Source: Candidatus Poribacteria bacterium (lineage in GTDB: Bacteria > Poribacteria > WGA-4E > JAJDTR01). From it: 64,000 bases of DNA. Position 1 is the stretch's first letter. Each line of letters starts with the position of its first letter. The position numbers and the translations under genes were made by a program. Below are positions 61,470 through 64,000 of the stretch, one piece after another. The notes beneath the pieces were generated by a model. The model did no database searches, was not told the DNA's origin, and saw only the letters and a program-made list of their open reading frames with translations. The DNA lies in the NCBI GenBank assembly GCA_965222225.1, contig CBDCTK010000002.1, positions 1,760,001 through 1,824,000 on the forward strand. The letters run 5' to 3'.

Positions 61470-61868
61470 ATGAGTATTTGTAGATGTATACTATTCCTAC
61501 TCGTCTGTCTATCAAGTTTCGGTTGCGCTACGCTTTTTACCGAGCAGCAGTATACTTTGGTGGATCAGGAAGTGACGCCAGAAATTCTCTTCTCGGGAGT
61601 CGCTTATACCATTCCCGTAAAACTTGATGTTCGAAAAATTGTGATTCTGGGTTCCGGAAAAATTCAGAATATCGACATTCACGCTCGTGATGACAGTAAC
61701 CATTTGAAGCTGGTAAAGAGAGTACAAAAAGCCATTCAATTTCCATTTGAACTTCCGCTTAGGGCTGAAACGGACGCCATTAAAATCTCACATCGGTCAA
61801 CGACCGGGAAAGGCAACATTGATACGATTCAGTTCTACACCACCACAGAGAAATCTGGTGCGAATTAA
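61470..61868 (+). CDS. Hypothetical lipoprotein
   Basis: SFGC lipobox; GAGGAG RBS. Confidence 0.7.
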   Translation: MSICRCILFLLVCLSSFGCATLFTEQQYTLVDQEVTPEILFSGVAYTIPVKLDVRKIVILGSGKIQNIDIHARDDSNHLKLVKRVQKAIQFPFELPLRAETDAIKISHRSTTGKGNIDTIQFYTTTEKSGAN

Positions 61869-62461
61869 GAACAGGAATTAACTCGTTTTTTTTCTCTCAG
61901 TATCAAGTATGAAGAGGCCTCTCTCACCGACTATGACAAAGCATAGGGAATGCCAGTGACCGCATGGGGACAAATTAGGCGACGGAGTCTCCAAAAAACC
62001 TATACCAACGATTATACCTCTGTCCTTGATTGGGAATTTACCTGTTATTCTGTTAATCAACTTTCTTTGTATCCCTTTCATCGTGTTCGCAATCGAACCT
62101 ATCGGTACGATTGGGCGGCCATATCCAGAGCAGCACGCCTTCCTTTCCAATGAAGCCCTCCTGCGTGCAGTCCCAACTCACATTCAGATTGTGCATCCAC
62201 GTGCCGGCGAGGTCATCGGCGAGTTCGGCAAACGGGCAGATAGAAGCGATGTGGTGTTTAGTCCGACCACGGCGCATGTAGCAATTCTGGACTATCTTAT
62301 AGATTCAAAGACGACCATCGTAAACGTATGGGATGTCAATGCCCGCGAGCAGGTATCCGAGTGGGAGATTGCGGCACGGATAGGGGTGTCAGCATTCAGC
62401 CCGACGGAGCCGTTCTTCGCCGCCTCTTTTGACGATGAGATTCATCTGGAGAATCTACCAC

Positions 62462-62821
62462 ATGAAAACCAAAGGAAAAGCAACCCGAGACATCATCACC
62501 GAACAAGAACTAATCAACACCTTCGGTCTAACCGTCAACCAGTTTTGGCAGAAATGCCAAGACGCTGGCGCAGCCATGCACAACCGACCGGTCATCATAT
62601 CCCAATAAGAACAAGCCCTCCTCCGTGAAGCGACTCAGATAGAGGAACAGATACAAAACGCTTTCGGAACAACCATCAAAGGCTTGTGGGAACATATCAA
62701 GTCGGCCGTCATGAACTCCGGCATCACTAACCTTCAATCGGTCATACTGTCCAAAACCGACCGAGAATTGTTAAGCCAAGCCCAGAAAGACCACAACGAT
62801 AAGTGGAACTCAATGCTCTAG
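62462..62821 (+). pseudogene. Insert ORF1: two-repeat small protein with an internal TAA (62606-62608)
   Basis: MKTKGKATRDIITEQELINTFGLTVNQFWQKCQDA...VIISQ*EQALLREATQIEEQIQNAFGTTIKGLWEHIKSA...VILSKTDRELLSQA; GGAG RBS. Confidence 0.65.
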
Positions 62822-62834
62822 GAAAGGAGAGACA

Positions 62835-63086
62835 GTGAACGAACTCACCCTAGGACTTATCATCGGATTCATAACAACCGCACTGCTACTAGCAGGATTA
62901 ATCTTAATCCACCTAACCGACGCAGACAACCGCCTCGACGAATTTCAGGCGCGGAAAGAACCACCGCCCGAAGAACAAACAGCCGAGACAACCGCAAAGC
63001 CGAAGAAGGAAGACGACAACACCGCCACCGGCGCAGTCATCATCAACCAAGTCCGAACTTCACGACGTAGCATCCTCGGATTTTAA
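62835..63086 (+). CDS. Insert ORF2: small single-TM hypothetical protein
   Basis: GGAAAGGAG RBS; hydrophobic N-terminus and charged tail. Confidence 0.7.
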   Translation: MNELTLGLIIGFITTALLLAGLILIHLTDADNRLDEFQARKEPPPEEQTAETTAKPKKEDDNTATGAVIINQVRTSRRSILGF

Positions 63087-63104
63087 CCCAAAAGGAGACC
63101 CCCT

Positions 63105-63458
63105 ATGTGGTACGAAACTGAACACGGAGATTTAGTCAACCTCAACCAAGCTAAATTCATTGAGATAGTCCCGCAATGGAAAGAGATCCCCAGCAACGAC
63201 ATAGACGTGCTTATGAGTACCCCCAACGAAATAGAGTGTTGGAAGGTACGAGCAGTCAACGACGACGACAGCATAACCCTTTTCAAGGGAACTCAAATCG
63301 AATGCGTCCGAGCCAAAGCCATCATACGCGACGGCTTACGAACCGATACACACAACTTCCTTGACCAAAACGACATAACCAACACCGTCAAAGAGCACAC
63401 CGAAACATATTGCAAAGTCTGTGATACCGACCCTTGCGAAGGGCACGCAGCCGGATAA
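63105..63458 (+). CDS. Insert ORF3: hypothetical phage-like protein with C-terminal CxxC...C
   Basis: AAAGGAG RBS; MWYETEHGDLVNL, YCKVCDTDPC. Confidence 0.7.
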   Translation: MWYETEHGDLVNLNQAKFIEIVPQWKEIPSNDIDVLMSTPNEIECWKVRAVNDDDSITLFKGTQIECVRAKAIIRDGLRTDTHNFLDQNDITNTVKEHTETYCKVCDTDPCEGHAAG

Positions 63459-63480
63459 TCCCCGGAAAGGAAACCGACCA

Positions 63481-63777
63481 ATGGACGTACGCGACCTAAT
63501 CATCGACATGACCGAACACAGCATGGATAGCCAAGTCGTAGTCATACGAGACGGCAAACGCTACGAAATTTCGGGAAGTAACCTCGAATATGGTCCAGAA
63601 GGCTACGAAGCCGTCCTCACACTCAACTTCCTAAATGAGGTAGGCGAACCAAAGTCATTCACGTACTACATGCTCAAGGCAGTCCATTTCATACAGAAGA
63701 AGCACATCATTGCACGTATAGCCGAATGCTCTATGGAACTGGAAAATTGGCGAGTTTGTTGGAAAGATGTTAAGTGA
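63481..63777 (+). CDS. Insert ORF4, truncated by the right junction (last ~15 codons are out-of-frame WD40 DNA)
   Basis: GAAAGGAA RBS; MDVRDLIIDMTEHSMDSQVVV. Confidence 0.6.
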   Translation: MDVRDLIIDMTEHSMDSQVVVIRDGKRYEISGSNLEYGPEGYEAVLTLNFLNEVGEPKSFTYYMLKAVHFIQKKHIIARIAECSMELENWRVCWKDVK

Positions 63778-64000
63778 ACGACGGCCCTGGATGCGATTCA
63801 GCCGAGGTGATAGCTATATAATCCATTCGCGCTTCCCCGGGGATCACGCTTCGGTTTTTAGCCAGGATGGTCGTTTTCTCATCGTTGCGTCAAAACGTCC
63901 GGATATTGAGTTGTGGAATGTGGAAACACGCCGTTTGGAAGGCCACTTTCAAGGTCACCCCGATGACGATGACTGGGTTGGGGGTGTAGTCATCAGTCCG

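What the first reader, a model, noticed from the sequence alone, without database searches (positions are those of the whole stretch)
62446..63730. Phage-like operon slice inserted into a WD40 gene with only a CT junction and no recombinase
Seen: the left junction is ...GAG ATT CAT|CT GGAGAATC and the right is ...GCCGAATGCT|CT ATGGAAC. Removing 1285 bp gives CAT CTA TGG AAC TGG (DDEIHLWNWK), an intact WD repeat, with no apparent loss of host sequence. The insert is strongly A/C-skewed and holds four tightly packed ORFs with strong RBSs. It starts just upstream of an RBS and cuts ORF4 mid-gene, with no terminal inverted repeats and no integrase or transposase. Inference: a piece of a virus genome was captured in trans. 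Possible routes are end-joining at 2-bp microhomology, or a recombinase using a CT core (IS110/IS621 bridge recombinases are known to use CT). If such inserts recur, this would be an undescribed route for archiving phage DNA.
Basis: partly seen in the sequence, partly recalled or inferred. Interest (0 to 1): 0.85.

Follow-up and report, generated by a model that had tools for sequence, protein, structure and literature searches.

The report
Foreign DNA scrap in dead WD40 gene
A 1.28-kb piece of unrelated, oddly composed DNA carrying four small genes of unknown origin sits cleanly inside a bacterial WD40-repeat gene that is now a decaying pseudogene; it looks like a one-off accidental capture rather than a new system.

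Summary
Window 62446-63730 is a 1285-bp insertion in a WD40/beta-propeller gene. The junction repeat is TCT (3 bp), not CT, so the body is 1282 bp. Contigs from 4 independent studies bridge both junctions. The site is uninterrupted in 3 congeners, in a co-occurring diverged strain and in a database protein.

The insert is foreign by composition: A+C 63%, and 75% A/C at third codon positions against about 50% in the host. It is single-copy. 99.9% of its + strand lies in open frames.

A viral origin is not shown. No ORF matches PHROGs, Pfam, NCBIfam, PADLOC, phage records or viral, metagenome or genome contigs. ORF o4 has no credible relative among 1.84 billion representatives. Every copy found sits in this same WD40 context.

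The genome shows no IS110 recombinase domains and no Ku. The insert has no terminal inverted repeats and no Rfam match.

Both insert and host gene are decaying. The first ORF carries a nonsense mutation here and a frameshift in other strains. The WD40 gene has two Trp-to-stop changes and a frameshift.

Four other skewed islands I tested are not comparable inserts.

Best reading: a single illegitimate capture of mobile-element DNA, now a fossil. Interest is low to moderate.

The parts
62005..62444 (+). 5' part of the WD40/beta-propeller gene, corresponding to residues ~5-151 of the intact 770-aa orthologue of G009
   Evidence: tblastn of the G009 orthologue; orthologue domains WD40, FlgD_ig and a sub-threshold Por_Secre_tail
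62445..62447 (.). Left copy of TCT (junction repeat or microhomology). The empty site has one TCT.
   Evidence: ('both 3')
62448..63729 (+). 1282-bp insert body: foreign, A+C-rich, promoterless, single copy
62462..62821 (+). ORF o1o2, originally 119 codons. It is interrupted in this genome by TAA at 62606-62608, where intact alleles P0003 and P0005 have Lys. Four other runs instead lack one base at 62502, a frameshift. GGAG lies at 62448-62451.
62835..63086 (+). ORF o3, 83 aa, GTG start. It has an N-terminal hydrophobic helix (my reading of the sequence) and a charged, low-complexity tail. No family.
63105..63458 (+). ORF o4, 117 aa, ORFan. It ends with a Cys-rich stretch (C-x2-C-x5-C-x2-H).
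63481..63777 (+). ORF o5: 83 codons inside the insert, then 15 host-derived codons running out of frame into the WD40 gene. One variant has a 42-bp in-frame deletion (X1, P0017).
63730..63732 (.). Right copy of TCT
63733..64000 (+). The WD40 gene continues beyond the window, to L001:5595 = C2:1825595. Downstream it carries TGG>TAG (L001 4211-4213), TGG>TGA (L001 5006-5008) and a frameshift near L001 5190.

Best explanation
A single illegitimate recombination event placed a 1282-bp promoterless slice of a foreign operon into a WD40-repeat, secretion-tail gene of this species' ancestor. The slice probably came from a phage, plasmid or other mobile element with strong strand asymmetry. The event did not depend on any element-encoded machinery.

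The join used, or created, a 3-bp TCT at both junctions and lost no host bases. The simplest mechanics are two template switches, or annealing of a foreign single strand at the fork, both on the same 3-nt microhomology (MMBIR- or SPDIR-like). Ligation of a fragment into a filled-in 3-nt staggered break would also fit.

The insert has no function now. It and the host gene are drifting to destruction, and the filled allele spread in the population by drift or hitch-hiking.

Shown: the insertion, the empty ancestral site, foreign composition, single copy, absence of recombinase, terminal inverted repeats, IS110 and Ku, and decay of both insert and host gene.

Inferred: the donor type and the exact joining chemistry.
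For: Filled site: contigs from 4 of 4 laid runs (4 studies) bridge both junctions.

Empty site:
- A joint skipping exactly 1285 bp is seen in X1 and X7, on a diverged strain (29 mismatches in 353 nt).
- The flanks abut with a 3-base overlap in G009 and G007. In the alignment the site is uninterrupted in G009, G008 and G007, and their frames are open.
- Protein P0013 reads straight across the site.

Distribution:
- No insert DNA in any of 40 relatives.
- P0003 found in 1 of 175 other genomes of the phylum, and that hit is weak (E 4.9e-4).
- Single copy in the genome by blastn and tblastn.

Foreign codon usage: A/C at third positions 0.755 against 0.506 in three host genes. Two insert frames are among the 10 most extreme of 19,331.

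No machinery:
- No terminal inverted repeats and no Rfam match.
- No promoter-like site in 61800-64000.
- No recombinase or any family above threshold.
- PF01548, PF02371 and PF02735 each 0 matches in the own genome.

Decay:
- TAA in o1o2 here, Lys in P0003 and P0005.
- A 1-nt deletion at 62502 in 4 of 4 laid runs.
- A 42-bp deletion in o5 in X1 and P0017.
- In the host gene, two Trp-to-stop changes and a frameshift that are absent from 3 orthologues.

Every database copy of o5 (P0016, P0017) ends in the host-derived 15 residues, so no donor-context copy is known.

Microhomology-based, Ku-independent joining and SPDIR are described in bacteria (PMC6054270, passages; bioRxiv 10.1101/2023.11.22.568220, start of abstract).
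Against: - Zero loss of host bases plus a 3-bp duplication is the classic footprint of a transposase or integrase strand transfer. It is atypical of resection-heavy A-EJ as described in the passages of PMC6054270.
- The 3-bp repeat is only marginally beyond chance (P about 0.05), so it cannot discriminate between mechanisms.
- The donor is unknown, so microhomology on the donor side cannot be checked.
- SPDIR is described for short patches ('microindel mutations' in the abstract seen), not for 1.3 kb.
- The left end falls 3 nt before a ribosome-binding site. If the insert is circularised, o5 would end in a TGA overlapping the o1 ATG. That tidy arrangement has about a 25% chance by my estimate, and it hints at a defined unit rather than a random slice.
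Confidence: 0.6

Rival explanations
1. A host or co-resident transposase or integrase, acting in trans on non-cognate DNA, inserted a fragment by staggered strand transfer. Gap repair then produced a true 3-bp target-site duplication.
For: The duplication is exactly 3 bp and no host base is lost. Transposase fragments exist nearby at L001 8603-9594, read from ORF translations. That a 3-bp duplication is typical of some IS families is recalled, not tested.
Against: There are no terminal inverted repeats or conserved ends in any register of the TCT. The insert is single-copy. The 3-bp repeat is near chance level. No candidate enzyme was identified.
Confidence: 0.15
2. The insert is the remnant of a larger integrated element, such as a prophage placed by a serine or tyrosine integrase at a short core. 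Later internal deletion removed all but 1.28 kb.
For: That integrases with very short cores commonly integrate inside genes is recalled. The insert is decaying, and one 42-bp deletion variant is seen.
Against: The ORFs form one continuous, evenly spaced, co-oriented operon with no visible internal scar. No integrase fragment or phage family hit was found. No strain or database protein points to a longer version: all o5 copies end at the same host junction and 4 of 4 runs show the same 1285-bp unit.
Confidence: 0.1
3. The unit is a complete 1282-bp circular mini-element, cassette-like, that integrates by recombination at TCT or CT using a recombinase supplied in trans.
For: Read across a circular junction, o5 continues for 7 codons and stops at a TGA overlapping the o1 ATG. 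The o1 ribosome-binding site lies right at the left end (derived). A CT is present at both junctions.
Against: A 1282-bp circle would be essentially all coding, leaving no room for an origin, promoter or recombination site. Only one insertion site is known anywhere. The contigs show no back-joint, although contigs could hardly show a rare circle. There is no attC-like palindrome. The ATGA closure has roughly a 1 in 4 chance.
Confidence: 0.05
4. An IS110/IS621-type bridge recombinase inserted the DNA at a CT core.
For: CT lies within the TCT at both junctions. A CT core is conserved in the IS621 target and donor (PMC11208160, passages).
Against: PF01548 and PF02371 each have 0 matches in the own genome, while controls ring in 6 of 14 genomes. 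IS110 elements move as whole circles that carry the recombinase and long non-coding ends encoding the bridge RNA; the insert has neither. A CT dinucleotide at a junction is expected often by chance: P(ambiguity of 2 bp or more) = 0.16.
Confidence: 0.03
5. Assembly chimera, or the insert is ancestral and was deleted in the relatives.
For: None found.
Against: Contigs from 4 independent studies bridge both junctions. Orthologues in 3 congeners, and partial matches in genomes of two other families, stop and restart at the same point. Removal restores an intact WD repeat that aligns residue for residue. The composition is foreign.
Confidence: 0.01

Closest known systems
Illegitimate (microhomology-mediated) integration of foreign DNA in bacteria: double illegitimate recombination / SPDIR, and Ku-independent alternative end-joining (A-EJ)
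   Same: No homology beyond a few bases at the junctions, no element-encoded enzyme, a single event, and foreign DNA ending up inside a chromosomal gene. Ku is not found in the genome, which matches the A-EJ setting discussed for symbionts (PMC6054270, passages; SPDIR abstract).
   Different: The insert is 1.28 kb, much longer than SPDIR 'microindels'. No host base was lost, whereas A-EJ is described as resection-dependent. The donor is unknown, so microhomology cannot be verified on the donor side.
IS110/IS621 bridge-recombinase elements
   Same: No terminal inverted repeats, a scarless look, and a CT at the crossover.
   Different: No DEDD recombinase in the insert or the genome, no non-coding LE/RE and no bridge RNA. 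The insert is single-copy and is not a self-contained element.
Cryptic prophage or mobile-element remnants in pseudogenes
   Same: Small, co-oriented, tightly packed ORFan genes with host-atypical composition, decaying in place.
   Different: No hallmark phage gene, no integrase, and no att repeat beyond 3 bp. The size is only 1.28 kb with clean ends.
Capture of extrachromosomal 'filler' DNA at breaks in eukaryotes, such as organelle DNA inserts (recalled, not looked up)
   Same: An unrelated DNA fragment patched into a chromosome with 0-4 bp microhomology, after which it decays.
   Different: That process depends on Ku-type NHEJ in eukaryotes. Here the host is a bacterium in which Ku was not found.

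Membership tests
IS110/IS621 bridge-recombinase element | DEDD recombinase (PF01548 plus PF02371) encoded by the element | tested here: not met
   No family hit in the insert ORFs. 0 matches for either family in the whole own genome (94.9% complete), with controls positive in 6 of 14 genomes.
IS110/IS621 bridge-recombinase element | Long non-coding left and right ends encoding a bridge RNA | tested here: not met
   99.9% of the insert lies in open frames. Intergenic gaps are 13-22 nt. No Rfam match at E<=1. I did not check whether Rfam holds a bridge-RNA model.
IS110/IS621 bridge-recombinase element | Conserved core dinucleotide (CT in IS621) at both junctions | tested here: met
   TCT at 62445-62447 and 63730-63732. 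This is weak, because the chance of 2 bp or more of ambiguity is 0.16.
DDE-type insertion sequence / MITE | Terminal inverted repeats | tested here: not met
   No inverted repeat pairs the two ends. The closest pair (I8) has one arm 46 bp outside the insert.
DDE-type insertion sequence / MITE | Target-site duplication | tested here: inconclusive
   A 3-bp TCT direct repeat with one copy in the empty site. It cannot be told apart from microhomology, and P is about 0.05 by chance.
DDE-type insertion sequence / MITE | Multiple copies in the genome or in relatives | tested here: not met
   Only the self-hit by blastn and tblastn. None in 40 relatives.
Prophage or phage remnant | Homology to phage proteins or phage genomes | tested here: not met
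   PHROGs best E 0.08. No hit in 50,697 phage records. No relatives in IMG/VR with o4, o5 or P0003. Foldseek against BFVD gave 0 hits at E<=0.001, on a low-confidence model.
Prophage or phage remnant | Integrase and att repeats | tested here: not met
   No integrase family in the insert. The direct repeat at the ends is only 3 bp.
Group II intron / other self-splicing element | Ribozyme structure and reverse-transcriptase ORF | tested here: not met
   No Rfam match and no RT domain.
Integron gene cassette | attC imperfect palindrome at the 3' end; crossover at G|TT | tested here: inconclusive
   No palindrome near the right end, and the junction is TCT. No attC covariance model was run.
Illegitimate recombination insert (A-EJ / SPDIR / template switch) | Short microhomology at junctions, no element-encoded machinery, unique event | tested here: met
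Illegitimate recombination insert (A-EJ / SPDIR / template switch) | Donor sequence shares the microhomology at both ends | not testable with these tools
   No donor-context copy was found in any collection searched.

The most novel reading that the evidence does not exclude
The insert may be the only known trace of an unsampled mobile element or virus lineage with an extreme strand bias: 75% A/C at third codon positions and four ORFans. It may have been placed by a precise, loss-free, 3-bp-duplicating integration carried out in trans on DNA lacking any recognisable ends. That would be a promiscuous integrase-like activity in a Ku-less, IS110-less symbiont that can fix arbitrary foreign fragments into genes.
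Probability: 0.1. Interest if true: 0.6.

Novelty: new member of a known kind. Interest (0 to 1): 0.3.

Why it matters
This is a clean natural example of foreign DNA entering a bacterial chromosome with no element machinery and no homology. Filled and empty alleles are both documented, the event is seen in several independent samples, and decay is visible afterwards. Such cases calibrate how often illegitimate recombination contributes to horizontal transfer in uncultured symbionts. It is a single event with a dead cargo in a dead gene. It does not reveal a new system, and it does not support a dedicated route for archiving phage DNA.

Tried and rejected
Donor search, all negative or self only:
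- Phage records by blastn.
- IMG/VR with o4, o5 and P0003.
- JGI metagenome contigs with o4 and P0003.
- GTDB genome contigs with o4.
- The 5.8-billion protein word search with o4, the read-through o1o2 and o5. It returned only near-identical proteins from the same chromosomal context.
- The 1.84-billion HMMER search with o4. It returned only P0001 and a weak 730-aa repeat-like hit, P0015 (E 1.6e-4, 19% identity), which I disregard.
- ESM Atlas with o4 and P0003: no usable hit.
- 176 genomes of the phylum with P0003. Only G000 itself and one weak hit inside a 698-aa ORF of G041 (E 4.9e-4 per genome), taken as chance.

Families: PHROGs, Pfam, NCBIfam and PADLOC gave nothing below E 0.009 and nothing near a curated cut-off.

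Structures: AlphaFold2 on single sequences gave pLDDT 57 for P0003 (all helical) and 46 for o4. Both are too poor to interpret. Foldseek against BFVD with the P0003 model gave no hit at E<=0.001. I did not search with the o4 model.

Recurrence:
- A genome-wide A+C scan and a third-position scan gave 21 other islands.
- I tested 4 of these against 9 congeners. L014 and L015 are conserved in the genus, so they are not inserts. L017 is conserved genes plus a short dispersed repeat. L016 lies in a larger lineage-specific region.
- The remaining 17 were not tested against relatives.
- The large skewed regions C2:1544-1557 kb and 1919-1948 kb are ordinary-looking cellular genes. In the second region the genes lie on the opposite strand, so its skew is of another kind.

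CRISPR: blastn at word size 11 found no spacer-like match to the insert in the own genome, and there was none in 40 relatives. I did not look for CRISPR arrays as such.

Circle: the contigs show no back-joint, but contigs cannot show rare forms.

Similarity of the right junction to the end of o2 (repeat D9): 12 of 14 positions. This is at the level expected by chance for a 9-mer seed in 1.7 kb.

Closed or missing sources:
I therefore could not see the 10,249-bp and 32,184-bp contigs directly and inferred their context from the o5 C-termini.
- Chayot et al. 2010 is not held and is known to me only through citing passages in PMC6054270.
- Supplements of papers were not opened.

Runs: of the 7 runs that hold the stretch I laid 4 (X1, X5, X6, X7). 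X2, X3 and X4 (study P2, possibly the source) were left out.
Full report
OBSERVATION. The window is G000:C2:1760001-1824000 of a 5.70-Mb, 2-contig genome. The WD40 frame runs up to ...GAG ATT CAT. A block follows that starts CT GGAG and ends ...GAATGCT, and the host frame then resumes at CT ATG GAA C. Deleting 62446-63730 (1285 bp) puts the downstream ORF (63767 onward) in frame with the upstream one.

The one correction concerns the repeat at the ends. It is TCT (62445-62447 and 63730-63732), so the body is 1282 bp. Read laying reports three letters that fit either side of the empty-site joint. By my calculation, 3 bp or more of junction ambiguity arises by chance in about 5% of random insertions, and 2 bp or more in 16%.

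IS IT REAL? Seven of 13 listed runs, from 5 studies, hold the stretch. I laid 4 of those 7 (X1, X5, X6, X7; four studies) and left out X2-X4 of study P2, which may be the source. In all four, one contig crosses both junctions: X1 record 3, X5 record 8, X6 record 19 and X7 record 27. It is therefore not an assembly chimera.

The same call shows a joint from L001:2444 to 3730 that skips exactly 1285 bp. It appears in X1 (1 contig, depth 9.9) and in X7 (1 contig, depth 13). The X7 contig (record 26, 353 nt) carries 29 other letters. It therefore comes from a co-occurring strain about 8% diverged that has the empty site.

ANCESTRAL STATE. I searched 40 relatives with the gene plus the insert.
- In G009 the two flanks abut with a 3-base overlap (870551-871096 and 871094-872461). 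G007 shows the same pattern.
- G008, and genomes of two other families (G015, G012, G023), stop and restart at the same query positions.
- No relative matches the insert itself (query 1049-2330).

In the alignment the site is uninterrupted in G009, G008 and G007, and their frames carry no stops. The G009 gene is an intact 770-aa ORF. It has WD40/beta-propeller repeats, a FlgD_ig domain, and a Por_Secre_tail match just under its cut-off. A database protein, P0013, reads ...DDEIHLWN straight across the site and differs from G000's N-terminal part at 3 of about 121 residues by eye. The empty site is therefore ancestral, and the insertion is specific to this species-level lineage.

WHAT THE INSERT IS. 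Composition is A .346, C .283, G .206, T .164. At third codon positions A+C is 0.755, against 0.506 in three neighbouring host genes. Of 19,331 open frames of 80 codons or more in the genome, only 10 reach A/C3 >= 0.70 together with G1 >= 0.25, and two of those are insert frames. Only 11 of 113,917 windows of 1285 bp deviate as much, own overlaps included.

99.9% of the + strand lies in open frames of 60 codons or more, which 0 of 2000 shuffles reached. Each start is preceded by a GGAG-type motif, and the gaps between ORFs are 13-22 nt. This is real coding sequence of foreign origin, arranged like a mobile-element or phage operon.

Nothing ties it to a virus, however.
- PHROGs, Pfam, NCBIfam and PADLOC gave no credible family.
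- Phage records gave no hit.
- IMG/VR, metagenome and genome contigs gave no relatives.
- A full HMMER pass of o4 over 1.84 billion representatives found only its own 99% twin and one weak repeat-like hit.
- ESM Atlas gave nothing.
- Single-sequence structure models were too poor to use.

The insert is single-copy in the genome by blastn and tblastn. It was not found with P0003 in the other 175 genomes of the phylum, apart from one weak hit.

Every copy in the protein collections lies in the same chromosomal context. Both o5 relatives (P0016, P0017) end in the 15 host-derived residues, and the P0004 cluster is a fusion of the WD40 N-terminus with o1.

NO MACHINERY. The insert has no terminal inverted repeats and no Rfam family. 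The scan of 61800-64000 found no promoter-like site. The whole genome (94.9% complete) has no match to either IS110 domain, PF01548 or PF02371, while the controls were positive. It also has no match to Ku, PF02735. According to the passages I read in PMC11208160, IS110 elements move as whole circles. These carry the recombinase and long non-coding ends that encode the bridge RNA. The insert has none of this, so the CT inside TCT is the only resemblance.

DECAY. o1 and o2 are a single 119-codon ORF. Alleles P0003 and P0005 have Lys where G000 has TAA. All four laid runs instead lack one base at 62502, which frameshifts the same ORF. X1 and P0017 carry a 42-bp deletion in o5. Three independent disabling or length-changing mutations in different strains argue that the cargo is not under selection.

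The host gene is dead too. Besides the insertion, G000 has TGG>TAG and TGG>TGA at two Trp codons conserved in all three orthologues, plus a frameshift near L001:5190 before the C-terminal sorting domain.

RECURRENCE. The composition scans gave 21 other skewed islands. I tested four against the 9 congeners.
- Two are conserved in the genus.
- One is conserved genes plus a short dispersed repeat.
- One lies in a larger lineage-specific region.

The two large skewed regions hold ordinary cellular genes.

MECHANISM. What is shown is a precise, loss-free insertion of a promoterless, co-oriented operon slice with a 3-bp repeat, and no recombinase anywhere in sight. I commit to a one-off illegitimate recombination (confidence 0.6). 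The most economical form is two template switches, or annealing of a foreign single strand at the replication fork, using the same TCT. That would explain both the repeat and the absence of host loss. Ligation into a filled-in 3-nt staggered break is an alternative.

Ku-independent microhomology joining and SPDIR are described for bacteria (PMC6054270, passages; abstract starts). The present insert is longer than SPDIR microindels and cleaner than resection-based A-EJ.

The main rival (0.15) is a true 3-bp target duplication made by a transposase or integrase acting in trans. A deleted-down integrated element (0.10), a 1282-bp circular cassette (0.05) and IS110 (0.03) follow. The circular-cassette idea draws on the fact that o5 read across a circle would stop at a TGA overlapping the o1 ATG.

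VERDICT. The viral label, the IS110 route and the 'archive' idea are not supported. This is a well-documented molecular accident in a pseudogene. It is useful as a natural example of illegitimate horizontal acquisition, and its interest is low to moderate.

Noticed in passing
L001 4211-4213, 5006-5008 and ~5190 (C2:1824211-1825190, just beyond the window): The WD40 gene carries two Trp-to-stop changes (TAG, TGA) and a frameshift in addition to the insert. All three congeners have W and an open frame at these places. The gene is a multi-hit pseudogene.
   Followed up: yes
window 63559-63602 (L001 3559-3602): A 42-bp in-frame deletion inside o5 in run X1 and in protein P0017. Read laying reports 8 letters fitting both sides, which points to a microhomology-mediated deletion within the insert.
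   Followed up: partly
L017 ~2093-2160 and ~2265-2343 (C2:2615692-2615942): A short (~40-60 nt) dispersed repeat with many near-identical copies in all 10 genomes of the genus (462-1188 first-look candidates per genome). It looks like a REP- or MITE-like element.
   Followed up: no
L015 1924-4001 (C2:3691723-3693800) and C2:1357108-1359184: A ~2.1-kb segment is present twice in the genome at 100% identity. It encodes a ~705-aa ORF, and related copies occur in congeners.
   Followed up: no
C2:1544065-1556685 (+): A run of cellular-looking genes with raised A/C at third positions (0.63-0.77). It includes a 331-aa ORF at 0.77 and several small membrane proteins with DLDKRID- or MNARFSD-type tandem repeats. 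The cause of the local skew is unknown.
   Followed up: partly
C2:1919601-1948300: The + strand is A+C-rich although most genes lie on the - strand with A/C3 of 0.24-0.41. This strand skew is of a different kind from the insert's.
   Followed up: partly
L016 (C2:639000-643000): A 4-kb stretch with almost no DNA match in the 9 congeners. It is part of a lineage-specific island of small ORFs with an A/C-rich coding strand.
   Followed up: partly
L001 8603-9594 (-) (C2:1828603-1829594): Three adjacent ORF fragments that look like one broken transposase, about 5 kb downstream of the insert. This is judged from the translations only; no family search was run.
   Followed up: no
G000 contig C1 (63,255 bp): The second, small contig of the assembly. 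It has no similarity to the insert and no A/C skew. Whether it is a plasmid, a phage or an unplaced piece was not examined.
   Followed up: no
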